Below, piece after piece: positions 2,563 through 25,080 of a stretch of DNA of 63,461 nt. The stretch comes from a virus (Duplodnaviria > Caudoviricetes), in IMG/VR virus record IMGVR_UViG_3300009503_000033, positions 1 through 63,461 of that record. One strand, 5' to 3'. How positions within the stretch are numbered: the first letter of the stretch is position 1; each line of letters starts with the position of its first letter. The notes under the pieces are model-generated. The model did not search any database. It worked only from the letters and a program-made list of their open reading frames with translations, and was not told where the DNA came from. Position numbers and translations under genes: made by a program.

Positions 2563-5475
2563 ATGGCTTGGCTAGAGGGATGGAGCTATAGAAAGCCCAT
2601 CACGGTTACTGCTGGTAGTAATGGAATGCCTAGTGACTATCAGGTGCTGGTTACCAATCCAATATATAATGAGAGCAATCTTGAAGGAAGCTGGCATTTT
2701 AATGAAGGTTCAGGTACAGTTGCTAAAGATAGCTCTGGTAAAGGTAGGGATGGAACCATCAGTGGAGCTACTTGGACTACTGGCAAGTTTGGTAATGGAT
2801 TACAATTTGATGGAGTAGATGACTATGTCCAGTATCCTAAAGCTGTCTGTGATGCTATTCTATCAGCACAGAAACTGACTATTTCTCTTTGGTTCAAATG
2901 GAGTACTTTAGCAACAGGCAAAACATTGGTAATGGGAGCAGACGGAGCAGGTTACTACCTTCATACTAATGCTTCTGATGCTAGTAAGATTGATTTTGAA
3001 ATTTACTACAGTGGTACTTGGTATAGACTCACTTCAGCTACTTCTGTAAGCACTGGAACTTGGTACCATATAGTAGCTACTTGGGATGGCTCAACTATGA
3101 GACTTTACTTCAACGGTGTTCAGGATGCTAATACCTTATCTCGTTCTGCTATGTCTGACAGAGCATCTTCTGGTGATAGAACTTTTAGTAATCTCTCTTC
3201 GGCTAATGCTATTGGAGGTATTATGGATGAAGTACGAATATATAGCAGAGCACTTTCTCCTGAGGAGATTAGGGAGCATTATTTAGCCAAAGCCAGACCA
3301 GACTATGAAGACATAAGATTCACTAAGTCAGATGGAACCACTACCTTGAGCTATTGGAAAGAGGCTGACGGTAAGTTCTGGGTTAAGGACCCTGATAGCT
3401 TGAGTGCTAATACGTCACACACTCTATATGTCTGCTACGGCAACCCGAGTGCGACAAGTACGAGTGATTTTGGGAATGTGTTTCCTGTTTTTAACGACAA
3501 CGCCGAGAGCGGAGTCCTGACGGACAAATGGACCAAATATGTAGAGGGAGGGACTGATAGTTCTGGTTACTCATCGGAGCAAGCCAGAAGTGGGGCAAAG
3601 AGCATAAAGGTGTGGAACACGGGTGGAGCTGGTTGTTGGACGTACGTTTACAAGACTCTTATAGCAACAACCTCAAGACGTTTTGTGGCTTGGTTTTACG
3701 ATACTGGCGATACGAGCTTGACAGCCAATATAGGTATTTTCAAAGACACAACCCCAACAACCGATGATTTTATTGCCAGAATGGGAATAGTAACATCAGT
3801 TAGTAGCTCCTATTACTGCTACGAATTAGAAGGTGGTAGCTGGGTAACTTCAAGCAAGGCGAGAAGTGTCGGGTGGCACAAGTTCCAAATCGACCTTGTT
3901 GGAGGAACAGTTAAAGTATATATTGATGACACCTTACTTGGTTCTCAAAGCACTTCTTCAAGTGCTCAAGATTTTGAGCTTCTGACGGGCGGGACTGGCA
4001 GTTCAGATGGGTTCTATGCCGATGATGTGTTCTTTGCTGCTTTAGTTTCGCCAGAGCCAACCACGAGTGTGGGCAACGAACAAGTTAACTTAACTGGCTG
4101 GCTCTATAGAAGGAAAATCACTATAGACCATACCAAAATAGACAGTGACTTGACAAGCTTTCCAATTACAGTATTTTTAAGCTCATCTAACTTTGACTTT
4201 AGTAAAGCAAGGTCTGATGGTTATGACATAAGGTTTGTTGCTAATGATGGAATGACACTGTTAAGCTATGAGAGGGAGAGGCATGACTCTTCTAATCAGG
4301 TAGCTGAGTATCACGTTAGAATACCTACTGTTTCTTCCTCTTCTGATACTGAATTATATATTTACTATGGTAATAGTAATGCTCAGGACATATCCAATCC
4401 TCCAGCAGTATGGGATAGTAATTATAAGGCAGTATGGCACATGGATGATTGGACATCAAGTACTATCAAAGACGCACGGGCTATCTATCATGGCACTAAA
4501 ACTGGAGTAAATGAACCTCAACAGATTGATGGTAAAATTGGTAAGGGTCAGAGTTTTGATGGAAGTAACGATAAAATAACCATTTCAGGAAACCCAATTG
4601 GAGTTAATTATACTGACCCATTCACAGTAGAGTTATGGATGAAGACCAATAGTGCTACAACATATCAATGGCTGTTTGGTAAGTATCAGGGAATAAATCC
4701 TTCTGGTTATTATGGATGGTTCCTTGCTGTAAGTGATACTGGTAAGTTAGTTTTTGTAACAAACAAGTCACAAATTGCTGATACACAGATTTATTCTGAT
4801 AACACCATTTCAGCAGCTACATGGTATTATGTGGCAGCAGTGCTTGACTCCTCAAGAACAATGAAAATGTATGTCAATGGTGTTCAACAGACACAAACTG
4901 GAACAGGACAAGATGGTTCACCCAACCCTTACAATACTAATATAGGATACAATCAATCAGGTAATAATATTTACTTTAATGGAGTCATTGATGAAGTACG
5001 AGCTTCATATGGAGCTAGGAGTGCTGCTTGGATTAAAGCTACCTATTACACCACCAGCAATAGCCTTTTGAGCATAGGCAATGAAGAGGTTCTCTTTACT
5101 ATAGTAAGTGATTCAGGAACTGGTGTAGAATCCATTGTGATTACCACCTCCATATCAATAAGTGAAAGTGGAACTGGTAGTGAAGTATCATTACTTTCTG
5201 CTTCATTGACAGTAAGTGAAACTGGTAGTGGTACAGATTCACCCAATATTACAGGTCAGATTTCAGCATCAGATAGTGGTTCAGGTAGTGAAGTAATAGA
5301 TAGTACGGGTTATGTTATAGTGTCTGAGGCTAGTGCAGGGAGTGATGCCATTACCAGAGCTGAAGCAATAGTACCAGTAGAAGACAGTGGCATGACATCT
5401 GATAGCATTAAATATATAAGGAACCCACCAACCAAGGCAGGAGTTCCTTCAGTGAGAGTGGTAAGGAGGAGGTAG
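2563..5475 (+). CDS. Adhesin/fibre protein with two DUF2341 and LamG (concanavalin-like) domains and a C-terminal repeat stalk
   Basis: W.YR..ITI and DIRF...DG.T.LSY DUF2341 motifs occur twice; LamG motifs (WYHIVATWDG, G.IDEVR); C-terminal S[DE]SG.G repeats. Confidence 0.85.
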   Translation: MAWLEGWSYRKPITVTAGSNGMPSDYQVLVTNPIYNESNLEGSWHFNEGSGTVAKDSSGKGRDGTISGATWTTGKFGNGLQFDGVDDYVQYPKAVCDAILSAQKLTISLWFKWSTLATGKTLVMGADGAGYYLHTNASDASKIDFEIYYSGTWYRLTSATSVSTGTWYHIVATWDGSTMRLYFNGVQDANTLSRSAMSDRASSGDRTFSNLSSANAIGGIMDEVRIYSRALSPEEIREHYLAKARPDYEDIRFTKSDGTTTLSYWKEADGKFWVKDPDSLSANTSHTLYVCYGNPSATSTSDFGNVFPVFNDNAESGVLTDKWTKYVEGGTDSSGYSSEQARSGAKSIKVWNTGGAGCWTYVYKTLIATTSRRFVAWFYDTGDTSLTANIGIFKDTTPTTDDFIARMGIVTSVSSSYYCYELEGGSWVTSSKARSVGWHKFQIDLVGGTVKVYIDDTLLGSQSTSSSAQDFELLTGGTGSSDGFYADDVFFAALVSPEPTTSVGNEQVNLTGWLYRRKITIDHTKIDSDLTSFPITVFLSSSNFDFSKARSDGYDIRFVANDGMTLLSYERERHDSSNQVAEYHVRIPTVSSSSDTELYIYYGNSNAQDISNPPAVWDSNYKAVWHMDDWTSSTIKDARAIYHGTKTGVNEPQQIDGKIGKGQSFDGSNDKITISGNPIGVNYTDPFTVELWMKTNSATTYQWLFGKYQGINPSGYYGWFLAVSDTGKLVFVTNKSQIADTQIYSDNTISAATWYYVAAVLDSSRTMKMYVNGVQQTQTGTGQDGSPNPYNTNIGYNQSGNNIYFNGVIDEVRASYGARSAAWIKATYYTTSNSLLSIGNEEVLFTIVSDSGTGVESIVITTSISISESGTGSEVSLLSASLTVSETGSGTDSPNITGQISASDSGSGSEVIDSTGYVIVSEASAGSDAITRAEAIVPVEDSGMTSDSIKYIRNPPTKAGVPSVRVVRRR
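5101..5410 (+). repeat. About six 18-aa stalk repeats (xxS[DE]SGxGx[DE])
   Basis: IVSDSGTGVE / SISESGTGSE / TVSETGSGTD / SASDSGSGSE / IVSEASAGSD / PVEDSGMTSD. Confidence 0.8.
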
Positions 5476-5476
5476 T

Positions 5477-7126
5477 ATGGCTGAACTTGAGGTCAATGCC
5501 AGTGACATTATGGAAGTGAATGTGCTGTCTGAGTTAGGTAAGATTACAGAATGGGTAGTCAGATTGAGGAATGTCAATGATACCTATACCAATGAATTTA
5601 CCATAGGAGATGATGTGGAGATACAGTTAGGATGGGAAGTACCAACTACAGTAGTAAGAGGATATGTTTACCATGTAGAGAGACTGGAGAATGATACCAT
5701 AGAGATTAGAGGGTTTGATTGGAAGGACTACCTAGCTGGACCTATAGTGAGCAAATCATACTATAATGAGGACTGGGGTTATATCCTCAAGGACCTAATA
5801 CAGAGCTATGCTCCTGCTCTGGATGCTAGTCAGATACAGAACATAGGAGAGACTACAGGTGGCTTACTGGAATACTATAACGTAACCCTGTGGGATGTCA
5901 TACAGGACATAGAGTCTAAGACTGATAGGGTAGTGAAGGTAGGACCAGATAGGGTGGTATACTTTGAGCCAGAGAGTACTTGGGCTAAGTACACCATTTC
6001 AGATGTGGATACTGAACAGGTATCCATTAAGAATAGTGCTACATCTGTTGTTAATAAAGTAATAGTTATAGGAGAAAAGGAACGCATATGGGATTCATTT
6101 ATGGAAGCTACCATCAGGAGTGAATATTGGTCTATTCAGTCAGGTAATTGGGAAACTACTCCTACTTTGGACCTCAAGCACAGTGGCAGTCAGAATGGAC
6201 TAATCTTTACTGCCATCAAATCATATGCTTCCACTGTAACTACACCAGTGAAACAATCTATAGAACCATATGAAGTCAGCATCTATGCCAGAACCAATGA
6301 TAGCCTGTCTGAAGGGTATAGATTAAGGCTATGGAATGATGGAACCAACTACCTTCTATCATTATATAAAGAGCCTAATGATGTACACCTAGCTAGTTAT
6401 ACCCTCAATAGCGATGAGGTAGGTAAGATACAGAATAAGGACTATATAATACTAAAGTTCAGTCTTAATAAGGAAGTAATTAAAGGCTACATAGGAGAGA
6501 CTGAACGCATTAGTGTATCAGATTGGACTTGGGAGTCTGGTAAGGTAGGATTCCTAGCTCCAGCTAATAGGGACACATACTTTGATTATATAAGGATAGA
6601 CACTGATACACCACTATACGCTATAGCAGAAGATAGTGAATCCATCAGTAAGTATGGAGAGAAGGCTGTAGTCATAAGGAGACCAGAGATTGGTCTAAAG
6701 ACACAAATTGAGGCTATAGCTAATGCTGAACTGATTAAGAGGAAGTATTCTGTCACTTCTGGTTCGTTGATAGTGGAAGGAGAGCCATCTATAGAACTTA
6801 ATGACTTACTCAAATTATATATCACTAGCCCTTATATTGATGGCACAGAGTATAGAGTGATAGGTATTGAGCATCATTATGATGATACTGGATACTATAC
6901 TACCTGTAAGCTGCAGGAGAGTATTCCAGCCTTGGAAGCAGTATTGAAGTACCTTACTACTGAACAGCTAAAGAAGGTATCAGAATTGACCATACCTAAG
7001 TCCGTACAGGTAGAGGACATCCTTCCATTGCTATCAGGCGATAGTATTATAGTATGGACAGAAGACAGTAGAATAGGACATAACAGGTTAGGATATGCCA
7101 AGGTGAGCAACTATGGTAGTGCTTGA
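5477..7126 (+). CDS. Tail hub/central tail protein with inserted beta-sandwich domain
   Basis: Hub-like motifs (IEIRGFD, VNKVIVIG, D.ESI.KYG, YRVIGIEH); position in the tail module. Confidence 0.7.
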   Translation: MAELEVNASDIMEVNVLSELGKITEWVVRLRNVNDTYTNEFTIGDDVEIQLGWEVPTTVVRGYVYHVERLENDTIEIRGFDWKDYLAGPIVSKSYYNEDWGYILKDLIQSYAPALDASQIQNIGETTGGLLEYYNVTLWDVIQDIESKTDRVVKVGPDRVVYFEPESTWAKYTISDVDTEQVSIKNSATSVVNKVIVIGEKERIWDSFMEATIRSEYWSIQSGNWETTPTLDLKHSGSQNGLIFTAIKSYASTVTTPVKQSIEPYEVSIYARTNDSLSEGYRLRLWNDGTNYLLSLYKEPNDVHLASYTLNSDEVGKIQNKDYIILKFSLNKEVIKGYIGETERISVSDWTWESGKVGFLAPANRDTYFDYIRIDTDTPLYAIAEDSESISKYGEKAVVIRRPEIGLKTQIEAIANAELIKRKYSVTSGSLIVEGEPSIELNDLLKLYITSPYIDGTEYRVIGIEHHYDDTGYYTTCKLQESIPALEAVLKYLTTEQLKKVSELTIPKSVQVEDILPLLSGDSIIVWTEDSRIGHNRLGYAKVSNYGSA

Positions 7127-7457
7127 AGGAGCTAAGGATTATATACTGGCTCTGCTGGCTAGAGAGAAGACAGGCATTAGCCATATAGGCATAGGGACTG
7201 GAACTCCTACCAGTAATGGGCTTGGTAATGAGGTAGGAAGGAGGTCTATTAGGGATGTAGTTGTACCAGCTACCAAACAGAGGATATTTGAGGCATTCTT
7301 TGAGGATACATATCCAGCTACAGACTATACTATAAGAGAGGTTGGATTAATAGGCAATGCTGGTAGTGAATATGTAGCAGCTACATCCATAGCCAGCGTA
7401 GTAAAAAGGAGTGGTATAGATAGCCTTATGATAAAATACAAACTATATTATGAGTAG
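7113..7457 (+). CDS. Tail/baseplate fibre-attachment protein
   Basis: SHIGIGTG..L.NEV.R and TIREVGL motifs typical of tail-fibre N-terminal domains. Confidence 0.55.
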   Translation: MVVLEGAKDYILALLAREKTGISHIGIGTGTPTSNGLGNEVGRRSIRDVVVPATKQRIFEAFFEDTYPATDYTIREVGLIGNAGSEYVAATSIASVVKRSGIDSLMIKYKLYYE

Positions 7458-7465
7458 GTGGTTAG

Positions 7466-7996
7466 ATGGTAGATTATACTACCGACCAATGGCTTCAGGT
7501 AGTTGATTGGCAGTCTATGGCTAGAGCTATAGGAGTAAATGGTGTATTGACAGGGCTACAGGTAAGTCCCGTATCTGGTATGAACATTAGTGTAGCTGCT
7601 GGTGAGGCTTTAATCAATGGTAAGAAAATAACTAAGTCCAGCTCTACAGAACTTACTGTTCCTGCTGCTAATGCTAACTACCCCAGAAAGGATATAGTGG
7701 TGCTAAATGACTCTGGGACTTTGTCAGTAGTTAGTGGTAGTCCAGAAGCTACCTATCCAGACCCAGACAAGGTAGGCATCTATACACCTATACCTAGACC
7801 TCCATCATTACCAAGTAATTCCATCATACTAGCTGAAATATGGGTACCAGCTGGGGCTACAAGCATAGGTAGCGATAATATATATGACAAGAGACACATA
7901 GTTGTGGACAAGATATTGTCCATAGAGTGTAGGACATCAGACCCAACAGGTAGTGAACTATGGGATGGGAGAATATGGCTTCGACTAGACCTATAG
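7466..7996 (+). CDS. Tail fibre/baseplate protein
   Basis: GLQV..GM.ISVAAGEA.ING, PRKDIVV, LAEIWVPAG..I.DKR motifs of minor tail proteins. Confidence 0.65.
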   Translation: MVDYTTDQWLQVVDWQSMARAIGVNGVLTGLQVSPVSGMNISVAAGEALINGKKITKSSSTELTVPAANANYPRKDIVVLNDSGTLSVVSGSPEATYPDPDKVGIYTPIPRPPSLPSNSIILAEIWVPAGATSIGSDNIYDKRHIVVDKILSIECRTSDPTGSELWDGRIWLRLDL

Positions 7997-8238
7997 AACC
8001 TCAATTCACCATAAAGAAGATTGAAAGTAGTATAGAACATCGTGCAGAGGGTCTGAAGGATAGCAATGGCAAGCCTGTTTCATTCAGGGTTATAGTAGGA
8101 GAAAGGAGAGGTGAAGCTACTATATACTACAGTGATGGGGTAGTAGAGAGGGTAAAGTATCCAGAGCAATGGAGTAATAAGGAAGCTGAAGATTATATAA
8201 GAAGCTACCATGGTAGGGGTGCAAAATGCCAAAGTTAA
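7960..8238 (+). CDS. Hypothetical protein in the tail module
   Basis: ORF fills the gap between tail genes; start uncertain. Confidence 0.5.
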   Translation: MGWENMASTRPIEPQFTIKKIESSIEHRAEGLKDSNGKPVSFRVIVGERRGEATIYYSDGVVERVKYPEQWSNKEAEDYIRSYHGRGAKCQS

Positions 8239-8915
8239 AGGTAAAGAAAGGTAATGTAAAGCACGTCAGCAAGTCACTGGTTACACCAGCAGGGTCTATA
8301 CCATTGAGAGTATATAGTGGAGGTAGTTCCTATGGCATTCCTTTAACCACATCTACAGCTACATCATGGTCTGATGCTTCTAATACTAAGCCATCAGAAC
8401 CAGAGTTTCGAACTCCTATCAAGATACAGAAAGGTAGTGGCTATTATATAAAGTCTGAAGTGACATATACAGATGCTGGGCATGGTGATGTAGCTCATAA
8501 TGACGTAGCTCATTCCGACAGTCATAGTAACTGGAGCAACCATTCTAACTGGAGTAATGTTCCTTCTTGGTCAAACAGTGGAACTTCTTGGCATAATGGT
8601 GATTGGTATGGTTATCATTATGATTATTTCGAATCACGTAGGACGGAAAATCTGTACGATTATTACTACCATTACGACGGTACAGTGAAGTATGACACAG
8701 CTAAAAGTAGTTACTCATGGAGTGCTGGAAGCCATGCCGACTATTGGGACTATGGAAGTGGAACTTTGAGAAGTGGTTCGGCTCATGGAGATTATACGGA
8801 CCATTCCGATGCTAGTAGCCATAGCGATACCCATAGTGATGTAGCCCATTCTGATGTATTGCATTCCGATTCTGCTCATTCTAACTGGTACAATATCTAT
8901 ACAGAGCCAATCTAA
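8226..8915 (+). CDS. His/Trp/Tyr-x-Asp/Asn repeat protein; putative radical SAM-modified tail fibre tip
   Basis: About 23 [HWY]-x-[DN] triads in two arms flanking an aromatic-rich core; last gene of the tail operon; converges on the radical SAM operon. Confidence 0.7.
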   Translation: MPKLKVKKGNVKHVSKSLVTPAGSIPLRVYSGGSSYGIPLTTSTATSWSDASNTKPSEPEFRTPIKIQKGSGYYIKSEVTYTDAGHGDVAHNDVAHSDSHSNWSNHSNWSNVPSWSNSGTSWHNGDWYGYHYDYFESRRTENLYDYYYHYDGTVKYDTAKSSYSWSAGSHADYWDYGSGTLRSGSAHGDYTDHSDASSHSDTHSDVAHSDVLHSDSAHSNWYNIYTEPI

Positions 8916-8916
8916 T

Positions 8917-9747
8917 TTATGTAACTCGAATTATGTACTTGTCTTCTGTATAGCCTGTGGTGGTAACACCAAGGAATAGGTTGGTATTTACCTGTAGTAT
9001 GCCTCTGTAAGCATTCCATTCCAGTGGCATGGATAGAAGTTTAATTAGCCATAGGTAAGCTTTCCTATCTATGCTTCTCATTGTATCTTTCCAATACCAA
9101 GCCATATCCTTGGTACTATTACACTGAAAGCTACAAGGTAAGTGAGAAGTCAGTCTGATGCCAAAGTACCTAAGTAGCTGATTACACTCCACATAAGGCT
9201 TGATGGTTATATAATGGACATAACCCTCATCTTCCATAGGTTCTGATACTTCCTTAGTTCCTGTAGCTATAGCTGCTTCCCACATAGGGTCTATCTTACC
9301 TCTTTTCCATCTGTCATTAAAGGCTATAGTACAGCACTCTGGATAACCTAACATCCTACCTACTTCTAAATGTACTTTATTGGAGTCATTAGAGGCAATT
9401 TTAAATTTCATAGCCGTATCCTTATCTCTAGCCAGAACTCCATATATAAAACGGTCTTGGTTAGGTGCTGGAGCTATATGCCTATGACTGAATCCTTGAT
9501 ACTTAGCCGAAACAGCTATAGGAAGGAATACCAGTCCATCAACAGCTATTCTAGAGAGAATATCTAGTCCATTATCCATATCTACGTGTATAGTAGCCAC
9601 ATCTCTATAGCCATTCTTGACTGTTAGGTATTCTGCTTGGGTAAACATAGAACTAATCCTATTCAGCCTATCTTGCCATAGGTTCTCTTTTGATTCAGTC
9701 TTCCATATTGTCCTAGTGAATGGGACTATATCCAATGCTACTTTCAC
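8917..9747 (-). CDS. Cys-motif protein (DUF483-like), putative radical SAM partner
   Basis: GRMLGYPECC and SHLPCSFQC motifs; 4-nt overlap with the radical SAM stop. Confidence 0.6.
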   Translation of the reverse strand: MKVALDIVPFTRTIWKTESKENLWQDRLNRISSMFTQAEYLTVKNGYRDVATIHVDMDNGLDILSRIAVDGLVFLPIAVSAKYQGFSHRHIAPAPNQDRFIYGVLARDKDTAMKFKIASNDSNKVHLEVGRMLGYPECCTIAFNDRWKRGKIDPMWEAAIATGTKEVSEPMEDEGYVHYITIKPYVECNQLLRYFGIRLTSHLPCSFQCNSTKDMAWYWKDTMRSIDRKAYLWLIKLLSMPLEWNAYRGILQVNTNLFLGVTTTGYTEDKYIIRVT

Positions 9748-11798
9748 AGGTATCCATCCATGTGCCTACAGGCACCATCTAGGTGCTCTATGCTACCAGA
9801 TGGTCTAGGCTGTATGTCATTATATATCAACTCAAATAGAGCCTTCCATACTGGACAGAACTTATCCTTTCTTCTCCAATCAGAATTAATACCGTGATTG
9901 GGGCAACCTCCCAAGCATGATTGCCACCATCTACATCCATTACAGTCAGTTTCTAGTAGTAGCTTCTCTCTAATGTCTGGTCTATAGTCCTTTGCTCTAG
10001 GAAAGGGAGGCTCATTGTGATAGAGCTTGGTACAATTGGTGTCTACTCCATCATACCTGATGGCATGTATAGAAGGTGTATTGAATGGGTCACATCTACC
10101 AAAGATACACACCGCATCCTTACCTCTAAGCCTATCTGCTATGTCTATGAAGGGAGAATAATGAAGGTTATGCTCCTTACAGAAGTAGTAAAGGTCAGTA
10201 TAGAAGTCGATAGCCTCTTCTACAGTTAATTCCCATTCCCTATTAGGCATGTTGTTAGTAATACAAGCTAAGTTCATCCTACCATGGGTTATTCCTATGG
10301 ATTTTAAATCAAGTAGCCACTTCTTATATAATTCCCTATATTTTACGGCATTGAGCTTATGGATGACACTAATGATGCTTACTGGTATGCCCTCTTCACG
10401 TAGTCTATAAATATTATGTAACACAGATTTACCCATAGCTATACGTTTCTGCTTGCTACCCTTGCCTCTTAAGGCATTGCATACTGGTGGTCCATCTACC
10501 GATACAGATACGTGGGTATTATACTTCTTAAATGCCTTTATTTGCCAGTCCTTAATATTGTAAGCACCTGTCTGGATAGATGATTGCCCTCTCATTATAT
10601 AACCAAGTTCCAGTATCTTGTTGAATACCCTCTTAGGATAGGTAGTAGGCTCACCTCCATGCAATACAATATCATGTGCAGGGCATTCCCTTGCTAGTTT
10701 AGCTATAGTGTCTATGATTTTATGTAATTTAAATTTAGGTGGTGTACTATACCATCCAGACTGCTTTATGAAACAATTGTGAAGTATGTAACCTTCAGCA
10801 ATAAAGGTTTCGATGTCAGTCTGGAGATTATATACCGTTTTAATTCCTCCTTTCTTGATATCGATAATTGCTTCAGATTTTTTAGGTCTTAATCCATCAA
10901 ATGACATTTTCCTTAATATACTAGGCTGAGTTAAAGCAAAGAATCGTTGTTTTTCTTTCCTATCTCCTTTCAGACGAACGGTTGGACAATGAGCTTTATG
11001 TCTTTCTATGACTGATTCAAAGTTAAATAAAGAGAGATAATCGTGTATTCGTTCTAGAATTTCCTCGTTTGAATTGCTTATCCTTAAGATATTGTGGCTA
11101 AAACTACCTTCTGCATCAAAAATTCCAGCTAAATACCCTCTTTTCCATTCTCTATCACCTTCATTAGAAACAAGCTCAGAGAGAATCTTAAATGAAGAGT
11201 GGTCCTCTCTGTAAATGGCTCTCATATTCTGCTGGAACTGATACTGTTTAACGTTAATGCCTAATTCTTTTAGATAAGAAGTAGCTCGTTCTAGAGCTTG
11301 CTCGTCCTTTAGAGCAATTCTGAACCTATAATAAGTGAGGTTATCTTTATAGTTATATTGCCTTAGAAGACCATCTCCATCTATTAAACCTGCTAAATAA
11401 CCTTTCTTGTAACTCAATGTTTCTTCTTGATTGTCAATAGGAATGAATGGGCGTTTAATTTTATTCAGACTTCTACCTCTCAATTTACATGGTAAAACTC
11501 TCTCAATAGTTCTCCACCCTTTAGAAGTAAGATAAGGGTGGTCAGAAGTAAGCTCTATTGAGCCTTGTTCAGTAATTAACTTAAAAGTTAGAGCTTCTCT
11601 TGAGCTTAAAGCTATTACCTTTCCTCTAGTGAACTTCCATTTACCATCTATTTTCTTTACACCGATGATTTCTTCTCCCTCCTTCAATCTTTCTATGGGT
11701 TTCCATTGGTGATTGAGCATAAGTATTCTTGTGCCTGCTGGAAGACAGTACTTACATTCATAAGGGCATTGTAAGAAGCTTTCTGTAGCTATGGTCAT
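9744..11798 (-). CDS. Radical SAM/SPASM-domain enzyme containing an intein (about 360 aa spliced)
   Basis: CPYECKY|C motif rebuilt after splicing; LHGGEPT; VSVDGP; SPASM cysteines (CIFGRC, NC, CNGCRWWQSCLGGC, FC). Confidence 0.9.
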   Translation of the reverse strand: MTIATESFLQCPYECKYCLPAGTRILMLNHQWKPIERLKEGEEIIGVKKIDGKWKFTRGKVIALSSREALTFKLITEQGSIELTSDHPYLTSKGWRTIERVLPCKLRGRSLNKIKRPFIPIDNQEETLSYKKGYLAGLIDGDGLLRQYNYKDNLTYYRFRIALKDEQALERATSYLKELGINVKQYQFQQNMRAIYREDHSSFKILSELVSNEGDREWKRGYLAGIFDAEGSFSHNILRISNSNEEILERIHDYLSLFNFESVIERHKAHCPTVRLKGDRKEKQRFFALTQPSILRKMSFDGLRPKKSEAIIDIKKGGIKTVYNLQTDIETFIAEGYILHNCFIKQSGWYSTPPKFKLHKIIDTIAKLARECPAHDIVLHGGEPTTYPKRVFNKILELGYIMRGQSSIQTGAYNIKDWQIKAFKKYNTHVSVSVDGPPVCNALRGKGSKQKRIAMGKSVLHNIYRLREEGIPVSIISVIHKLNAVKYRELYKKWLLDLKSIGITHGRMNLACITNNMPNREWELTVEEAIDFYTDLYYFCKEHNLHYSPFIDIADRLRGKDAVCIFGRCDPFNTPSIHAIRYDGVDTNCTKLYHNEPPFPRAKDYRPDIREKLLLETDCNGCRWWQSCLGGCPNHGINSDWRRKDKFCPVWKALFELIYNDIQPRPSGSIEHLDGACRHMDGYL
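10776..11747 (-). mobile_element. Intein with LAGLIDADG endonuclease (324 aa) inside the CxxxCxxC motif
   Basis: CLPAGTRI start, HN|C end, LAGLIDGDG and LAGIFDAEG motifs. Confidence 0.95.
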
Positions 11799-13081
11799 TC
11801 TTCCATCTCCAAGGTAAGCACAGGTATGGATGATGGAGCTGGTTTCATCTCCTCTTGCATCAACATCAGTAGAGCGTCTACCATATCATCTCCCTTACCC
11901 CTATCTGGATTGTAGTAAGCCAGTTCCCTAAGCACTTCATCGTACCCTTCCCATATCTTTATCCTACCCTCTTCTACCACTACTCTTAATGTTTCTATCA
12001 TTCTGGGCTTATCCTTCCTAAAGGATACTGGCACTACAGGTATGCCCATGTTCTTCAGCCTCTGCCATTCAGAGATATTTTCTGAATCAACGAGCACCTT
12101 GATGGGTTTGTACCTTTCTACCAGTGCCTGTATCCTATTAAGTTGCTCAGGGTATGGTACTTTCTTCCAGAGTTGGGCATCCAGAATTATATAGCGATTA
12201 CCTACCTTTTGGGCTACTATTACTGCTGATGGGTGTACTGCCTGTCCCCAGTCTACCAGTATGTATGTAGAGGCATCATCTATAGGCTCTGGTTTTAATG
12301 GTGTCTTTAGTCTATGTATGTCCTCTAACCTGAATAGACTGGGGGTGTCATCCATGGCAAATATACCTTCCCACATAATTTTAAATTGGGCATTGGGTAG
12401 ATGCTGTCTAGCCCACTCTATTTCATCCTTACTTATCCAAGTACACTGGCTGGCATCCCAATGGAACCTCTTCCAGTTAGGATACTTGGTCTCATTGGCA
12501 TAGTACTCCCAGAATATACTATCATAATACGGTGTGCTGGATAGAATTACCTTGGAGTAGTTCATACCAGCTACTCTGGAAGGAGCATCCAGTATCAGGT
12601 TAGGGTCTTTCTTAGCTGCATCTGATGCTTCGTCTACTATAATCATGTTCACATGGGGACCATGGTATGCTGTAGGACTAGCTGCTAGAGCTACTATTTC
12701 AGAGCCATCTAGGAAGCTAGTATAGCTCTTAAGAGGTTCCTTCTTGAGTTTAGAAGTAAGGAACTCATGCTTATATAAGTACTTCGTAAAATATGAATAC
12801 AATACGTCAGATTGCCTCTGTGAACCAGCTAGTATCATCACTCTATATGGCTCATGTATTATGGTAGGTAGGACTGTAGTAGCCCATAGGGACATTAGAG
12901 CTAATGTCAATGTCTTACCTGTGGAACTGGCATTACTAACCAGAATTCGAGTTACATTAAAATCTATTAAGGTATCCAATAACTCCTTCTGAGGTGGTAT
13001 TGGTTTGTACCCAGTGATGTCTTCAAAGAACTTACTGGGCTTGGTTTGCCACAGTAATAGCCTAGCTGGATTTACTGGCAT
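11795..13081 (-). CDS. terL: Terminase large subunit
   Basis: Walker A-like SSTGKT, Walker B IIVDEA, LSSTP, RNase H-like nuclease (LVDWG, DDMVDAL). Confidence 0.9.
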   Translation of the reverse strand: MPVNPARLLLWQTKPSKFFEDITGYKPIPPQKELLDTLIDFNVTRILVSNASSTGKTLTLALMSLWATTVLPTIIHEPYRVMILAGSQRQSDVLYSYFTKYLYKHEFLTSKLKKEPLKSYTSFLDGSEIVALAASPTAYHGPHVNMIIVDEASDAAKKDPNLILDAPSRVAGMNYSKVILSSTPYYDSIFWEYYANETKYPNWKRFHWDASQCTWISKDEIEWARQHLPNAQFKIMWEGIFAMDDTPSLFRLEDIHRLKTPLKPEPIDDASTYILVDWGQAVHPSAVIVAQKVGNRYIILDAQLWKKVPYPEQLNRIQALVERYKPIKVLVDSENISEWQRLKNMGIPVVPVSFRKDKPRMIETLRVVVEEGRIKIWEGYDEVLRELAYYNPDRGKGDDMVDALLMLMQEEMKPAPSSIPVLTLEMEE

Positions 13082-13577
13082 CCTTATCCCACAGGTCAGC
13101 TATCTTTTCTATATACTCCACAGGTACTTCAGCCTTCTTCATTAGCTCAATCAGCTTGGTGTATTGTTCCTCTAAGGTCATAGTCTTGGTAGGCATCTTA
13201 GCCTGTATCCTTTCTATAGCCTCTAATGTCTTTCTACCTTCTGATATGGCTAATAATATCTTTGGTAGCTGTTCTGTATCCACACCATTCCTAAGTATGT
13301 TGTCCAGAGAGTCATTAATAATAGTCAAGTAGTTTGTAAGGTGGTCTAATGCCTCTGGTACTTCCAGTGTCTGGCTTTGTACCATTCCTTCCACTACTGG
13401 CACTGTTTGTTTCCTATCTTTCAGAAGCTTCCAGACAGTCATTTTGGATAGGTCATAACCAGCCTCCTTTAGATAGACCTGTACTTCAGATATGCTCTTG
13501 CCTTCAGAATAATACATTTCCAGAGCCTTAGCTTTAACATCAGGTCTGATGCTATCTATCTTACTTGGAGGAGGCAT
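13062..13577 (-). CDS. Putative terminase small subunit (N-terminal HTH)
   Basis: HTH-like N-terminus, helical body, overlaps the terL start. Confidence 0.65.
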   Translation of the reverse strand: MPPPSKIDSIRPDVKAKALEMYYSEGKSISEVQVYLKEAGYDLSKMTVWKLLKDRKQTVPVVEGMVQSQTLEVPEALDHLTNYLTIINDSLDNILRNGVDTEQLPKILLAISEGRKTLEAIERIQAKMPTKTMTLEEQYTKLIELMKKAEVPVEYIEKIADLWDKDASKSS

Positions 13578-13578
13578 A

Positions 13579-13764
13579 CTACTCTATCCAATATTGATAC
13601 AATATCCTTATTAAGCTTACTGTTTCTCCAAAGTTATATAGCCAGAACCTGAGCCATATGAATCTATACGGTACTGGTGGAAGAACACTAACGAACTTGA
13701 CCCATTTAAGGCTTTTGGATTTGAATTTTAACACCCAGGTAATTACTCTTGATAGGTGAGTCAC
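13579..13764 (-). CDS. Small hypothetical protein
   Basis: Abuts the terS start on the same strand; hydrophobic and basic. Confidence 0.35.
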   Translation of the reverse strand: MTHLSRVITWVLKFKSKSLKWVKFVSVLPPVPYRFIWLRFWLYNFGETVSLIRILYQYWIE

Positions 13765-13773
13765 TTATAAAAA

Positions 13774-13790
13774 GTGATTAGCTAATATTA
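13774..13790 (+). promoter_or_regulatory. 17-bp element GTGATTAGCTAATATTA, copy 1
   Basis: Identical to 14733-14749; both intergenic and followed by ATAT-rich sequence. Confidence 0.65.
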
Positions 13791-13870
13791 CGCTATATAA
13801 TAATGGAGAAGGATAGGATGGGGGTTATGGGACTTAGTCATTTTTTCTTTCTAAGTCCACCACTTTAACG

Positions 13871-13890
13871 AATTTGAATTACATAAAATT
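13871..13890. promoter_or_regulatory. Palindromic operator-like site AATTTGAATTACATAAAATT
   Basis: Exact reverse complement of 19061-19080; member of the genome-wide family. Confidence 0.7.
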
Positions 13891-13957
13891 GGGTTAACGC
13901 TATCTTTATATAGTCTCAAGTCGATATTTAACCAAACTAAAAAGGGGGGTGAAATAG

Positions 13958-14692
13958 ATGGAGGAGAAAACAGAACTTGAAGAGACAGAAGAGACTGAAA
14001 GAACAGAAGAGACTGAAAGAACAGAAGTAAAGACTATATACTGGACAGAACCAAGACAAGGTATAAAACATATTGTATCAGGAACTAATATCGTATCGCA
14101 AAAAATCGAGGAACTGGAACAATTAAAACAAGGTATCAGTGTTGAAGAAATCGATGTTAATACTATGGATTGGTTGGATGGTATACTATATACTATGGAC
14201 TTAACACCGTCGGAAGTTGCTTATTGCCATTGGCGACGAACACTAAGATTAACTCAAGGTAAAACACGGAAAATTGTTAAGGTCGGCGATGTCCAGATGA
14301 CCGTAGAAGAAAAAATACAGATACGAATGCCTAAGGGTGTGGTGGGTTGGGGTGTGCGGCCGCCAAACACTATAGTAACGGGTGACCCATTTCGGATTAA
14401 TGCGAAATGGGTGGACGATGTTGCAATGCTATTAACACCCAAAAACAAGATAAAAATTACATGGCAAAAATTTATAATGCACGTCATACGGCCGTACATT
14501 GTACACGCAAAAATAAAAAAGAAGAACGGTTATGACTACGGTCTGTACGCATACAGAATATTCAAACCAACCAAACACAACAAACGAGCCTTGATACATT
14601 TGCTTAATACAAAATTCGATTGGCTTGAGTTTCGAAGTTATAGAGACCTGGTGTACATACGCTTGAGAAAGTTCCGAAAACCAAAATTTTAA
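13958..14692 (+). CDS. Hypothetical early protein with N-terminal TEETER repeats
   Basis: Strong RBS (GGGGGGTGA), U-rich terminator after the stop, atypical base composition. Confidence 0.75.
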   Translation: MEEKTELEETEETERTEETERTEVKTIYWTEPRQGIKHIVSGTNIVSQKIEELEQLKQGISVEEIDVNTMDWLDGILYTMDLTPSEVAYCHWRRTLRLTQGKTRKIVKVGDVQMTVEEKIQIRMPKGVVGWGVRPPNTIVTGDPFRINAKWVDDVAMLLTPKNKIKITWQKFIMHVIRPYIVHAKIKKKNGYDYGLYAYRIFKPTKHNKRALIHLLNTKFDWLEFRSYRDLVYIRLRKFRKPKF

Positions 14693-14720
14693 ATTTTAAT
14701 TCTTTTCTTTTCTTTCTTAT
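14693..14720 (+). terminator. Archaeal-type oligo-T terminator
   Basis: TTTTAATTCTTTTCTTTTCTTTCTT directly after the stop codon. Confidence 0.55.
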
Positions 14721-14732
14721 TACTCATTAAAG

Positions 14733-14749
14733 GTGATTAGCTAATATTA
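14733..14749 (+). promoter_or_regulatory. 17-bp element GTGATTAGCTAATATTA, copy 2
   Basis: Identical to 13774-13790; upstream of ORF 14788. Confidence 0.65.
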
Positions 14750-14787
14750 GCTCATATATTATTGGATAAAGAAAGGGGGGGAAAGAG

Positions 14788-15060
14788 ATGGAAATGGATT
14801 TTGAGATAGTGACAATCGGCGAAGCTAGGCAAAAGTGGGAACTTAAGGATGAAGTAATTAGGGCGCTAGTGGTTGCGACGAAAACATTGACAGACAGACA
14901 AGGCATAGTAATAAAGCCAGAATACTATACTAGGCAACCACAAATAAAGGAACCAACCGCATTAGCACAAGCACTTAAAAGGAAGTATCCTAGCTTGGCT
15001 TTTGCCGTAAGAGATAAAAACGTGGTGGCAGTAAAGCCTAAAGAAAATAACGGCAGTTAA
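14788..15060 (+). CDS. Hypothetical protein
   Basis: ORF with G-rich RBS. Confidence 0.65.
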   Translation: MEMDFEIVTIGEARQKWELKDEVIRALVVATKTLTDRQGIVIKPEYYTRQPQIKEPTALAQALKRKYPSLAFAVRDKNVVAVKPKENNGS

Positions 15061-15075
15061 TAGGCTTAACTACAT

Positions 15076-15110
15076 CTTTCTTTTTTTATGTTTACTACAC
15101 CTTTTTTTAT
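15076..15110 (+). terminator. Oligo-T terminator
   Basis: Two T7 runs, each followed by ATGTT, after the stop codon. Confidence 0.5.
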
Positions 15111-15160
15111 GTTCATTATATGTAAAAGAAGAGAGAAGGAAAGGGGAGAGATGGGGAAAT

Positions 15161-15433
15161 ATGGCATTAAGCATGGTTGAGATTGAAGCAGACCGCATAA
15201 ATCAGCTGTTGGAGAACGTAGCATTAAGACTAGCAAGGAGATATGACTATTACGCTATAGATATATATGACAAGCATGGGTTTCTACTGGATACTATTGA
15301 AGCAGGACTAAGCAGAAAGCAAGCATTGAGCATTATTCATTCGATATACTATGTTCTGCTTAAAGAGCAAGCAAGAAAGAGAAGCATATGGACAAGGATT
15401 AAAGCATGCTTGAGGAGGTTAAAGCGTGTTTGA
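15161..15433 (+). CDS. Hypothetical protein
   Basis: ORF with purine-rich RBS. Confidence 0.6.
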   Translation: MALSMVEIEADRINQLLENVALRLARRYDYYAIDIYDKHGFLLDTIEAGLSRKQALSIIHSIYYVLLKEQARKRSIWTRIKACLRRLKRV

Positions 15434-15532
15434 TGTTATATTATATGCACTGGTTGGATTTCAAGCAGTTTTAGCATTTATTAGCTTCATTATTTTAGTA
15501 AAAGCAATATATGAGCAATTGGAGGAATAGCA

Positions 15533-15988: not shown

Positions 15989-15990
15989 CT

Positions 15991-17946: not shown

Positions 17947-18165
17947 ATGAGAACCTGTAAGCAGTGTAAGATGTATATGATGGAAGCAACCAGATTTATA
18001 GGCATAGTTCCAATAGGAACGGTATTTCAATGCCCTAATTGTGGCTTCAGGATTATAGAGCAGACTAAGGAAGAAGCAGATAGGGAAGAGAGATTGTGGA
18101 AGGAAGTAGAAAGCAAGCTGGAAAGGAAGACTATAAAGGAGTTAAAGGAGGGAAAGATATGGTAA
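17947..18165 (+). CDS. Zn-ribbon protein
   Basis: CKQC...CPNCG. Confidence 0.6.
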   Translation: MRTCKQCKMYMMEATRFIGIVPIGTVFQCPNCGFRIIEQTKEEADREERLWKEVESKLERKTIKELKEGKIW

Positions 18166-18335: not shown

Positions 18336-18483
18336 AGCAGATAGTGGGCTGATACTATGGGTAAGGGAAGACCAGACCTGCGTAAAACTCCTATATGCAG
18401 GTTGTGTAGGAACAAGAAAGGAGAACTTTGTGACACTTGGTATGATAGATGTCCATATGCTACACATCCTGAGCGTGATATGA

Positions 18484-18858: not shown

Positions 18859-18880
18859 ATTTAAGTATCATAATTTGTTG

Positions 18881-25079: not shown

Positions 25080-25080
25080 T

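What the first reader, a model, noticed from the sequence alone, without database searches (positions are those of the whole stretch)
8466..8894. Mirror-spaced repeat arms around an aromatic tip suggest an antiparallel hairpin needle
Seen: left arm YTD-2-HGD-2-HND-2-HSD-1-HSN-WSN-HSN-WSN; right arm read backwards HSN-2-HSD-2-HSD-2-HSD-1-HSD-ASS-HSD-YTD. The spacings 2,2,2,1 mirror each other, so triads would sit in register in a fold-back beta-hairpin. The ~75 aa between the arms are rich in Tyr/Trp/Asp/Ser, like a binding loop, and contain more CG dinucleotides than neighbouring DNA. Inference: a stalk (cross-linked and/or His-metal coordinated, comparable to the HxH needle of T4 gp37) presenting an exchangeable receptor-binding tip.
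Basis: partly seen in the sequence, partly recalled or inferred. Interest (0 to 1): 0.8.

Follow-up and report, generated by a model that had tools for sequence, protein, structure and literature searches.

The report
Radical-SAM-linked His-x-Asp repeat tail protein
The last gene of a hot-spring virus's tail module encodes a protein packed with His-x-Asp-type triplets that, in many viruses and microbes, sit beside a radical SAM enzyme, which points to enzyme-made cross-links, not a metal needle.

Summary
The triads are real. ORF 8226-8915 (229 aa) has 24 [HWYF]-x-[DN] triads against 6.6±2.1 in shuffles, and 15 of 17 His lie in H-x-[DN]. The "mirror" is not special. The two arms are direct repeats: forward alignment scores 88 (0/2000 shuffles reach it), reversed 42 (793/2000).

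The main finding lies next door. The convergent neighbours are a DUF483-like protein and an intein-split radical SAM/SPASM enzyme. Relatives of that enzyme sit beside H-x-D-dense proteins in:
- 5 of 7 close viral loci, against 0 of 12 distant ones;
- 22 of 29 close genomic loci, against 0 of 51;
- Thermus phage Cumys.

Across 23 such proteins, 791 of 844 His have D/N at +2. No Pfam, NCBIfam or PHROG family covers the repeat.

Best reading (0.5): the triads are enzyme target motifs, most likely stapled into triceptide-like His/Trp-to-Asp/Asn cross-links in a structural, tail-fibre-like protein.

Structure prediction failed (pLDDT 28.7), so the hairpin is untested. A gp37-type metal needle is not supported. 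One preprint noticed the three-gene module but guessed DNA modification.

The parts
8226..8915 (+). H/W-x-D/N repeat protein (229 aa), last gene of the tail module. Its start overlaps the upstream ORF by 13 nt.
   Evidence: ORF. Homologs P0001, P0002, P0003 and P0005 share the start MPK[LI]K. 24 triads against 6.6±2.1 by chance.
8226..8465 (+). N-terminal domain (residues 1-80), nearly free of triads (one, WSD at 48). Conserved at 43% mean pairwise identity. CpG-poor like the rest of the genome (o/e 0.21). Inferred to be an anchor or recognition part.
8466..8558 (+). Left arm (residues 81-111): YTD, HGD, HND, HSD, HSN, WSN, HSN, WSN.
   Evidence: Direct repeat of the right arm.
8559..8783 (+). 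Centre (residues 112-186). Tyr/Trp/Asp/Ser-rich, holding six further triads (WSN, WHN, HYD, HYD, HAD, YWD). Least conserved part (25% identity, indels). 8 CpG.
   Evidence: The 4 of 4 amino-acid differences to strain L110 lie here.
8784..8894 (+). Right arm (residues 187-223): HGD, YTD, HSD x5, HSN, WYN.
8917..9747 (-). DUF483-like protein (276 aa) with invariant Cys138, Cys139, Cys205 and Cys209 (GYPxCC ... PCxxxC). Constant partner of the radical SAM enzyme.
   Evidence: Pfam DUF483, 22.5 bits, below the cutoff of 25. Alignment A4. AF2 pLDDT 84.7. No clear PDB fold match. Co-occurrence.
9744..10775 (-). C-extein of the radical SAM/SPASM enzyme (343 aa plus stop). It starts with the third Cys of CxxxCxxC, has a CX2CX5CX3C SPASM motif, and ends in a short tail with two H-x-D motifs (HLD, HMD).
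10776..11747 (-). Intein (324 aa) with a LAGLIDADG homing endonuclease. It begins with Cys, ends in His-Asn, and is followed by Cys.
   Evidence: Its CpG o/e is 0.47 against 0.19 for the genome.
11748..11798 (-). N-extein of the radical SAM enzyme (17 aa), carrying the first two Cys of CxxxCxxC.
   Evidence: Matches the N-terminus of the intein-less homolog P0004.
11795..13081 (-). Terminase large subunit, in the same leftward operon as the radical SAM and DUF483 genes (context: late genes).
2563..8238 (+). Tail/baseplate module upstream (context): a 970-aa LamG/DUF2341 protein, a 549-aa tail protein, and 114-, 176- and 92-aa small structural proteins.

Best explanation
ORF 8226-8915 belongs to an undescribed class of H-x-D repeat proteins. 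These proteins are genetically tied to a dedicated radical SAM/SPASM enzyme and a DUF483 protein.

Shown:
- The triads are a strict, conserved motif: aromatic His (here also Trp) at position 1, any residue at 2, Asp or Asn at 3.
- The motif-bearing proteins and the enzyme pair travel together across viruses, bacteria and an archaeon.

Inferred:
- The triads are the enzyme's target sites.
- The most likely chemistry is that of triceptide synthases. The enzyme abstracts the C-beta hydrogen of Asp/Asn, and the radical attacks the imidazole or indole two residues upstream. Each triad then becomes a three-residue cyclophane, losing 2 Da.
- With 24 sites in 150 residues, this would make a densely stapled, rigid, heat- and protease-resistant distal part.
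- The conserved 80-residue N-terminus would dock it to the tail or to the enzyme pair.
- The arm-centre-arm C-terminal module is portable between N-terminal domains.
- The enzyme needs protein splicing of its intein to rebuild the CxxxCxxC cluster motif.
- Its place in the terminase operon suggests late expression together with the structural genes.

Sub-odds:
- substrate of the radical SAM enzyme: about 0.7;
- cross-link of the cyclophane type: about 0.4;
- virion (tail-fibre-like) component: about 0.5.
For: 1. Motif. 15 of 17 His and 6 of 9 Trp are in x-[DN] context, with 0 of 5000 shuffles reaching either count. The same holds in P0002, P0005 and P0003. Position 2 varies. At aligned positions His, Tyr and Trp interchange, as do Asp and Asn.

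2. Neighbours. The adjacent genes are a DUF483-like protein and a radical SAM/SPASM enzyme. The enzyme's nearest NCBIfam models are cross-link-forming peptide maturases (DynA, AmcB, DarW, DarE, YhhB, GrrM/OscB, XyeB, FxsB), alongside anSME.

3. Co-occurrence in viral contigs. H-x-[DN]-dense ORFs lie next to 5 of 7 full-length enzyme relatives, or 4 of 5 if near-identical pairs count once. They lie next to 0 of 12 distant radical SAM hits.

4. Co-occurrence in genomes. 22 of 29 loci with enzyme E<=1e-24 have such an ORF within 8 kb, against 0 of 51 weaker hits. GYPxCC (DUF483) ORFs occur in 18 of 29 against 0 of 51.

5. Thermus phage Cumys. The gene order is tail collar fibre, small ORF, a 344-aa protein with 54 of 54 His in H-x-[DN], the radical SAM enzyme, then DUF483.

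6. A modular test. In the P0008 family, 2 of 2 loci whose protein carries the H-x-D C-terminus have the enzyme and DUF483 directly downstream. 0 of 5 loci with only the N-terminal domain do.

7. Pooled motif fidelity. 791 of 844 His in 23 enzyme-adjacent proteins have D/N at +2.

8. Fusions. Radical SAM-DUF483 fusions exist in L034 and L042.

9. Chemical precedent. Triceptides are defined by aromatic-to-C-beta links on aromatic-X-X motifs. Known His examples are HAA, HNR and HTK, and HtkB accepts Phe or Trp in place of His (whole text of PMC11499958 part 1). HAS is a further example (passages of PMC12912966).

10. Structural context. The gene ends the tail module here. L106's H-x-D protein lies about 4 kb after a major head protein.
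Against: - No chemistry was observed; everything rests on genomic association and motif logic.
- The enzyme reaches no curated family cutoff (best 62.5 bits against 450). In the PDB its clade is closest to anSME, which makes no cross-link (E 1.6e-26, full length). It is further from the triceptide synthase ChlB (2.3e-14, N-terminal part only).
- 7 of 29 close genomic loci and 2 of 7 viral loci show no H-x-D ORF within the flanks. In phiLo, none of the 6 neighbouring ORFs I translated is H-x-D dense.
- Characterised triceptide precursors are small leader-core peptides released by proteolysis. They are not 229- to 1250-aa proteins.
- Trp enrichment in the motif is limited to the window's family and L002.
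- His plus Asp is also a classic metal-ligand pair, and the cellular relatives carry Tat-like signals. That would also suit a metal-binding protein.
- Virion membership is inferred from gene order only. The junction between tail genes and the next module is also a usual place for cargo genes.
Confidence: 0.5

Rival explanations
1. The radical SAM enzyme does modify the H-x-D triads, but by another reaction. Candidates are oxidation or hydroxylation at Asp C-beta (anSME-like), epimerisation, or a modification that prepares a metal site. In the cellular systems the methyltransferase fused to DUF483 would add methyl groups.
For: The closest solved relative is anSME over the full length. NCBIfam scores for anSME, PapB, DynA and AmcB are nearly tied. 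In cellular cassettes DUF483 is fused to a class I methyltransferase domain.
Against: It does not explain why position 1 must be aromatic, or why Trp and Tyr can stand in for His in the window's family. The phage versions of DUF483 lack the methyltransferase domain.
Confidence: 0.22
2. The protein is an unmodified trimeric fibre in which His and Asp of the triads coordinate metal ions along the axis, as the HxH motifs do in the T4 gp37 needle. The two arms pair as a fold-back hairpin around a receptor-binding tip.
For: His and Asp at i and i+2 point to the same face of a beta-strand and are common metal ligands (established knowledge). The gene lies at the end of a tail module. The centre is the least conserved part.
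Against: - There is no H-x-H in the sequence, no fibre family hit and no solved relative.
- Trp is as enriched as His at position 1, and it replaces His at aligned positions.
- The mirror spacing is not significant, and the arms are direct repeats.
- The model leaves the strict coupling to a radical SAM/DUF483 pair unexplained.
Confidence: 0.1
3. The three genes are a cargo cassette and not part of the virion. On this view the H-x-D protein is a RiPP-like or exported product that acts on the host or on competitors, carried at a module junction.
For: Cellular cassettes encode H-x-D proteins with Tat-like signals and no phage domains. In the window and in Cumys the cassette sits at the border of the tail module. 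The ORF and the intein escape the genome's CpG avoidance, as recently acquired DNA would.
Against: H-x-D arrays form the C-terminal part of 600-1250-aa proteins, one of them in a structural module after the major head protein. Phage-type H-x-D proteins share N-terminal repeat domains that the cellular ones lack. The window ORF overlaps the upstream structural ORF, as co-translated genes do.
Confidence: 0.13
4. The radical SAM/DUF483 pair modifies DNA, as the Cumys preprint suggested, and its adjacency to H-x-D proteins is incidental.
For: Passages of 10.1101/2024.08.14.607894 report homologs in cyanobacteria beside deazapurine DNA-modification genes. Phage radical SAM enzymes for thymidine hypermodification appear in the search listing.
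Against: - The enzyme has a SPASM motif, and its nearest models are peptide or protein maturases.
- H-x-D ORFs accompany it in 22 of 29 close loci against 0 of 51.
- The enzymes often end in H-x-D tails themselves.
Confidence: 0.05

Closest known systems
Triceptide systems (three-residue cyclophane-forming radical SAM enzymes: XyeB, YhhB, HaaB, HtkB, GrrM/OscB, FxsB, ChlB, MicB)
   Same: Both have repeated aromatic-X-X motifs in a gene next to a radical SAM/SPASM enzyme. His is a known position-1 residue (HAA, HNR, HTK, HAS). These families are among the nearest NCBIfam models.
   Different: - No family cutoff is reached.
- Position 3 here is almost always Asp or Asn.
- The substrates are 200-1250-aa proteins with 15-70 motifs, not short leader-core peptides.
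- The partner is DUF483, and there is no protease or transporter.
- The carriers are often viruses, and the gene sits in tail or structural modules.
The 'rSAM module' of Thermus phages Cumys and phiMa (preprint 10.1101/2024.08.14.607894)
   Same: It has the same three genes in the same neighbourhood: a tail-module protein, a radical SAM enzyme and a DUF483 protein. The enzyme is 30% identical to the window's.
   Different: In the passages I saw, the preprint calls two of the proteins 'of unknown function' and proposes an unknown DNA modification. The word 'histidine' does not occur in its main text. The window's enzyme carries an intein, and its H-x-D protein has another N-terminal domain and uses Trp and Asn as well.
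Anaerobic sulfatase-maturating enzyme (anSME)
   Same: It is the closest solved relative of the enzyme clade, aligned over the full length (E 1.6e-26). It has no N-terminal peptide-recognition domain and acts on a protein, not a small peptide.
   Different: NCBIfam TIGR03942 scores 54.5 bits against a cutoff of 349. The sulfatase target motif (recalled: Cys/Ser-x-Pro/Ala-x-Arg) is absent, and the middle residue of the triads is not conserved.
T4 gp37 long-tail-fibre needle (HxH iron sites) and the GxHxH phage fibre repeat (recalled)
   Same: Both are His-rich periodic motifs in a distal tail protein.
   Different: The motif here is H-x-D/N, not H-x-H. Trp substitutes for His. There is no family or structure match. 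The motif is coupled to a radical SAM enzyme.
His-Xaa-Ser system HxsA-D (TIGRFAMs/NCBIfam; recalled)
   Same: It is a repeat protein defined by a His-x-residue triplet and paired with radical SAM maturases.
   Different: The third residue is Ser, not Asp. No Hxs model appears among the hits of the ORF (0 families) or of the enzyme (all 20 families listed).
QhpD/QhpC (quinohemoprotein amine dehydrogenase maturation)
   Same: A radical SAM/SPASM enzyme cross-links Asp/Glu side-chain carbons in a protein subunit that is then exported. It appears as a weak hit for the L024 enzyme (1.2e-15).
   Different: It makes thioether links from Cys (recalled), and there are no Cys in the window ORF. The hit is far below the cutoff.

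Membership tests
Triceptide / 3-CyFE system | Precursor with aromatic-X-X motifs | tested here: met
   24 [HWYF]-x-[DN] triads. His and Trp are enriched, with 0 of 5000 shuffles reaching the observed counts.
Triceptide / 3-CyFE system | Radical SAM/SPASM maturase encoded beside the precursor | tested here: met
   The enzyme at 9744-11798 has CxxxCxxC (after splicing) and CX2CX5CX3C motifs. Adjacency is conserved.
Triceptide / 3-CyFE system | Maturase scores as a member of a curated cyclophane synthase family | tested here: not met
   AmcB 58.4 bits against a cutoff of 425; YhhB 33.8 against 445; GrrM/OscB 31.9 against 310; XyeB 26.3 against 450; FxsB 24.6 against 370.
Triceptide / 3-CyFE system | Aromatic carbon to C-beta bond, -2 Da per motif | not testable with these tools
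   Needs mass spectrometry and NMR.
Triceptide / 3-CyFE system | Short leader-core precursor released by proteolysis | tested here: not met
   The ORF is 229 aa. Related arrays sit in proteins of up to 1256 aa. No protease gene lies among the immediate neighbours 7113-13577.
Cumys-type rSAM module | Radical SAM enzyme homologous to Cumys_12, next to a DUF483 protein and a third protein | tested here: met
   tblastn gives 30% identity over 84% of the query, E 3e-33. DUF483-like neighbours are present in both. The third protein is H-x-D dense in both.
T4 gp37-type metal needle / GxHxH fibre repeat | H-x-H motifs | tested here: not met
   The sequence printed holds no H-x-H. 15 of 17 His are followed by D/N at +2.
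T4 gp37-type metal needle / GxHxH fibre repeat | Match to a phage fibre family or a solved fibre | tested here: not met
   Pfam 0 families; PHROGs 0; PDB profile search 0 at E<=1.
T4 gp37-type metal needle / GxHxH fibre repeat | Trimer with axial metal ions | not testable with these tools
   Needs purified protein, metal analysis and a structure.
Anaerobic sulfatase maturase | Score above the curated cutoff of TIGR03942 | tested here: not met
   54.5 bits against 349.45.
His-Xaa-Ser (Hxs) system | Match of the repeat protein or the enzyme to Hxs models | tested here: not met
   The ORF matches 0 NCBIfam families. None of the enzyme's 20 listed families is an Hxs model. The family names are recalled.
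Intein with LAGLIDADG endonuclease | Cys at the start, His-Asn at the end, nucleophile at +1, endonuclease domain, host motif restored on removal | tested here: met
   Residues 18-341 begin with Cys and end in His-Asn, followed by Cys. LAGLIDADG_3 scores 2.7e-15. The flanks give C-x3-C-x2-C as in the intein-less P0004.

The most novel reading that the evidence does not exclude
Tailed viruses of bacteria and archaea, and many cellular genomes, carry a so far unnamed protein-stapling system. A radical SAM/SPASM enzyme with a DUF483 partner would install dozens of His(Trp)-to-Asp(Asn) three-residue cyclophane cross-links along whole structural proteins. That would turn the distal parts of phage tail proteins into rigid, heat- and protease-proof rods. 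It would be the first RiPP-type cross-linking of a virion protein, and the most densely cross-linked ribosomal protein known.
Probability: 0.35. Interest if true: 0.9.

Novelty: new variant of a known kind. Interest (0 to 1): 0.78.

Why it matters
Radical SAM cross-linking is known from small secreted peptides. Here the same logic appears to apply to full-size proteins with 15-70 target motifs, many of them in phage structural modules. One carrier, Thermus phage Cumys, is cultivable.

If the triads are stapled, this would be:
- a new post-translational route to stabilise virus attachment organs, with hot-spring carriers suggesting heat resistance;
- a new substrate motif (H-x-D) and partner protein (DUF483, four invariant Cys, no clear fold match among solved structures) for radical SAM enzymology;
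- a ready source of enzymes that staple long repeat proteins.

It also gives a testable function to a three-gene module that the only paper mentioning it assigned tentatively to DNA modification. Finally, it links that module to Tat-signal H-x-D proteins in several bacterial phyla.

Tried and rejected
Structure and binding:
- AF2 monomer of the ORF with 5 sequences gave pLDDT 28.7 and pTM 0.16, which is uninformative, so arm pairing stays untested.
- Complex prediction with three copies gave no verdict (score 0.00, partner fold uncertain). This is neither for nor against a trimer.
- The ESM Atlas holds the sequence but gave no usable hit.

Searches that found nothing:
- Scans of viral contigs with the ORF and with the DUF483-like protein found no relatives.
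- The first genome-contig scan, with the single enzyme sequence, found none.
- The metagenome scan found only a 98% identical strain.
- PHROGs gave 0 families for the ORF, for L002's and L008's H-x-D proteins, and for P0006, P0007, P0008, P0011, P0013 and P0016.
- The PDB sequence searches found nothing for the ORF profile or for P0009.
- Tandem Repeats Finder returned 0 rows, and there were no inverted DNA repeats.
- Rfam gave only a 21-bit lncRNA match against a gathering score of 60, taken as chance.

DUF483 fold:
- Foldseek found 0 matches at E<=0.001.
- The VIA wide search gave a best Z of 7.1 (rmsd 3.5, 105 aligned) to a protein of unknown function. NleE followed at Z 4.9 (rmsd 3.0, 102 aligned). 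Both are within the range the tool calls common.

Sequencing runs:
- No RNA holder was listed.
- Related strains in runs X3 and X4 show little or no cover at 8696-8776. Holes in contig cover are not evidence.

Rejected or unavailable:
- I considered and rejected a pentapeptide-repeat beta-helix. Spacings of 3, 4, 5 and 6 are mixed, and Pfam gives no hit.
- The search of earlier findings was not open.
- Supplements of the Cumys preprint (its prophage loci, Fig. 3B/S4) could not be seen. They may list the same loci.
Full report
**What is at the coordinates**

The finding lies inside ORF 8226..8915 (+ strand, 229 aa). This is the last gene of a rightward tail/baseplate module. Upstream lie a 970-aa LamG/DUF2341 protein, a 549-aa tail protein, and three small structural ORFs, one with virion or baseplate PHROG hits. 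The window is a whole virus record with direct terminal repeats. Hot-spring metagenomes hold it.

- The protein has 24 [HWYF]-x-[DN] triads against 6.6±2.1 in 20000 shuffles, none reaching 24.
- 15 of 17 His and 6 of 9 Trp are in the motif.
- Tyr (3 of 21) and Phe (0 of 2) are not enriched.

The gene is real. Four full-length homologs (P0001 at 97%, and P0002, P0005 and P0003 at 39-49%) share the start MPK[LI]K. They keep the His and Asp/Asn of most triads, including several in the centre.

**The mirror**

The mirrored spacing 2,2,2,1 is present, but it does not carry the weight put on it. The two arms are direct repeats.
- The forward local alignment of residues 81-111 with 187-223 scores 88, and 0 of 2000 shuffles reach that.
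- The reversed alignment scores 42, and 793 of 2000 shuffles reach that.
- The DNA shows the same. Segment 8481-8518 matches 8832-8869 at 79% as a direct repeat, the HSN-W-x-N unit recurs three times, and there are no inverted repeats.
- Among homologs the mirrored spacing holds for three spacers in P0005, for two in P0002, and not in P0003.

A run of five-residue units reads alike in both directions. Whether the arms pair in space could not be tested, because the AF2 model has pLDDT 28.7.

**Centre against arms**

Leaving out the 97% copy, mean pairwise identity is 43% in the N-terminal 80 residues, 44% and 41% in the arms, and 25% in the centre, which also has indels.
- A 98% identical strain differs at 4 residues, all in the centre. 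P0001 also differs in the arms.
- The centre is not hypervariable. H131, H149, D172 and H187 are invariant.
- In P0006 the whole arm-centre-arm module (37% identity, E 9e-18) sits on an unrelated N-terminal domain. The portable unit is therefore the whole C-terminal module.

The CpG remark is confirmed and widened.
- The genome has CpG o/e 0.19, the ORF 0.55, and the centre 8 CpG, which is in the top 2.3% of 225-nt windows.
- Measured against its own amino acids and the genome's codon usage, the ORF has 0.84 of the expected CpG. 28 of 33 genes have 0.45 or less.
- The other exceptions include the intein-bearing gene and part of the LamG tail protein.
- This fits recent acquisition or exchange, but the counts are small.

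**The neighbours change the picture**

Two genes converge on the ORF.

The first is 8917..9747 (-), a DUF483-like protein (22.5 bits, just under Pfam's cutoff of 25).

The second is 9744..11798 (-), a radical SAM enzyme.
- It is interrupted by a 324-aa LAGLIDADG intein exactly at the third Cys of CxxxCxxC.
- Removing the intein restores the motif as in the intein-less homolog P0004.
- The C-extein has an invariant CX2CX5CX3C SPASM motif.
- Its nearest NCBIfam models are cross-link-forming peptide maturases (DynA, AmcB, DarW, DarE, YhhB, GrrM/OscB, XyeB, FxsB) together with anSME. All are far below their cutoffs.
- Among solved structures the clade is closest to anSME over the full length (E 1.6e-26). 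The triceptide synthase ChlB comes next, over the N-terminal part only (2.3e-14).

Both genes lie in one operon with the terminase genes.

**Co-occurrence**

I scanned the loci with scripts for ORFs holding at least 4 or at least 5 H-x-[DN] per 60 residues.

- Viral contigs found with P0004 (19 loci):
  - 5 of the 7 full-length enzyme relatives have such an ORF beside the enzyme.
  - That is 4 of 5 if the near-identical pairs L003/L004 and L006/L007 each count once.
  - 0 of 12 distant radical SAM hits have one.
- Genomes (80 loci found with the enzyme alignment):
  - 22 of 29 loci with E<=1e-24 have such an ORF within 8 kb, against 0 of 51 weaker hits.
  - A GYPxCC (DUF483) ORF is present in 18 of 29, against 0 of 51.
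  - The 7 close loci without one are L023, L030, L035, L044, L048, L049 and L051.
  - I did not read the four very large ORFs flagged in L025, L034, L037 and L042.
- Isolated phages:
  - Three Thermus phages carry the enzyme at 30% identity.
  - In Cumys the order is tail collar fibre, small ORF, a 344-aa protein with 54 of 54 His in H-x-[DN], the enzyme, then DUF483.
  - phiMa was not inspected.
  - In phiLo the enzyme and a DUF483-like gene are adjacent, but none of the 6 neighbouring ORFs I translated is H-x-D dense.
- A modular test with P0008:
  - This is an 808-aa protein whose last 220 residues are an H-x-D array.
  - 2 of 2 loci that match the array part have the enzyme and a GYPxCC gene directly downstream.
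  - 0 of 5 loci that match only the N-terminal 570 residues have either. Three of those five end within 1.6 kb of the match and say little.

Pooled over 23 enzyme-adjacent proteins:
- 791 of 844 His have D (89%) or N (5%) at +2.
- Position +1 is free (Ser 19%, Gly 15%, Thr 15%).
- Motif starts are 5, 3, 4 or 6 residues apart.

Other links between the three genes:
- Radical SAM-DUF483 fusions occur in L034 and L042.
- Many of the enzymes end in a short H-x-D tail of their own. The window's does too (..HLD..HMD..).

**Two architectures**

Phage-type proteins have N-terminal domains followed by the array.
- One kind of N-terminus is three GSxWxEG..YxD-like repeats. It occurs in Cumys_13, L003, L008, L024, Halorubellus L047, Halomonas L050 and P0013.
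- The MPKLK domain of the window's family is another kind of N-terminus.
- Some are large proteins. L106's lies about 4 kb after a major head protein.

Cellular cassettes occur in Chloroflexota, Acidobacteriota, Actinomycetota, Gemmatimonadota and a cyanobacterium.
- They encode about 200-400-aa H-x-D proteins behind a twin-arginine-like signal (read from the sequences, with no predictor run).
- In them DUF483 is fused to a class I methyltransferase domain.

No Pfam, NCBIfam or PHROG model covers the repeat, the enzyme clade, or (beyond DUF483) the partner.

**DUF483**

The partner folds confidently (pLDDT 84.7, pTM 0.80). It has four invariant Cys (C138, C139, C205, C209). No solved fold matches clearly: Foldseek finds 0 at E<=0.001, and the best VIA Z is 7.1 (rmsd 3.5, 105 aligned) to a protein of unknown function. 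The enzyme has no N-terminal recognition domain, since CxxxCxxC starts near residue 10. I therefore guess that DUF483 presents the substrate. This is inference only.

**Mechanism**

Triceptides are defined as three-residue cyclophanes with an aromatic-to-C-beta bond on aromatic-X-X motifs.
- His is used in HAA, HNR and HTK, and HtkB accepts Phe or Trp in place of His (PMC11499958, first part of the text read).
- HAS is a further example (PMC12912966, passages).

The H/W-x-D/N triads fit this rule. The interchange of His, Tyr and Trp at aligned positions fits an aromatic partner better than a metal ligand.

I therefore rank the readings as follows.
- First: stapling of each triad by hydrogen abstraction at Asp/Asn C-beta and attack on the ring two residues upstream.
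- Second: another radical SAM reaction on the same motif.
- Well behind: an unmodified metal needle.

What is shown is the motif, its conservation and the gene coupling. What is inferred is the substrate relation, the chemistry, and the place in the virion.

**Known or new**

The only paper I found that mentions the module is the Cumys preprint.
- It notes a radical SAM gene with "two proteins of unknown functions", one with DUF483, in Cumys, phiMa and prophages.
- It suggests an unknown DNA modification.
- "Histidine" does not occur in its main text (passages).

Other searches listed nothing on such a system. The terms were 'HxD' with 'radical SAM' and 'repeat'; 'phage' with 'triceptide'; 'phage-encoded' with 'radical SAM' and 'peptide maturase'; and two broader combinations. 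These searches cover open-access papers and bioRxiv only.

**Verdict**

The gp37 analogy does not hold. The feature is best filed as a new variant of radical SAM-matured repeat proteins, with unusually large substrates that are often viral and structural.

Noticed in passing
window 10776-11747 (-): A 324-aa LAGLIDADG intein sits exactly at the third Cys of the radical SAM CxxxCxxC motif. The enzyme cannot bind its cluster until it is spliced. The +1 nucleophile is itself the cluster ligand.
   Followed up: partly
window 33991-36015 (+) and 45123-50423 (+): There are two more intein-bearing genes. One is a RadA/Rad51-type recombinase with an HhH N-terminus and Hint/LAGLIDADG hits. The other is a 1766-aa protein that combines a metallo-beta-lactamase fold and an ATP-dependent DNA ligase with intein and homing-endonuclease hits. 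With the family B polymerase (37625-39796), this hints at an archaeal host; that is a guess. No tRNA genes were found.
   Followed up: no
whole window; islands at 3001-4500, 8226-8915, 10776-11747, 13501-17000, 18001-19000, 25001-26500: The genome is strongly CpG-depleted (o/e 0.19), while GpC is normal. A few islands escape the depletion. ORF 13958-14692 has 2.29 times the CpG expected from its codons and no family hit.
   Followed up: partly
window 9747-9810 (-); L002 10001-11245; L008 9956-11290; L021 7878-9128; L022 7908-9356; L026, L029, L106: Many enzymes of this clade end in a tail with 2-9 H-x-D motifs of their own, like a built-in piece of substrate. Others (L023-L025, L030, L032, L037, L045) do not.
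   Followed up: partly
L026-L029, L031, L036, L038-L041, L043, L046: Cellular cassettes run in the order radical SAM enzyme, DUF483 fused to a methyltransferase domain (500-940 aa), then an H-x-D protein. The H-x-D protein has a twin-arginine-like signal, in some cases followed by a lipobox-like Cys.
   Followed up: partly
L034 5926-8010; L042 7794-9893: Single ORFs of about 700 aa fuse the radical SAM/SPASM enzyme to a DUF483-like C-terminal domain.
   Followed up: no
L021 6838-7869 (Cumys_13); L003 1623-2975; L008 8313-9962; L024 6506-7216; L047 6629-7588; L050 7312-7896; P0013: Phage-type H-x-D proteins share an N-terminal domain of three repeats resembling GSxWxEG..L.YxD..G. Several end in a ..QPV.. 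motif. No family covers it.
   Followed up: no
window 8460-8730, run X1: In the best-holding run, Logan's assembly breaks into short contigs just across the left arm and centre. Two alternative 76-nt contigs at 8653-8728 differ from the window at 0 and 3 positions. The flanks assemble into pieces of 0.6-1.7 kb. This may reflect strain variants or the repeats.
   Followed up: partly
window 2563-5475 (+): A 970-aa tail protein has two LamG-type lectin domains and DUF2341. It is the likelier receptor-binding protein of this virus. Its middle (3001-4500) is one of the CpG-rich islands.
   Followed up: no
window 41155-42333 (+): A GT4 glycosyltransferase lies directly upstream of the portal gene. 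One of its hits is to the Pfam family named for glycosyltransferases in conflict systems.
   Followed up: no
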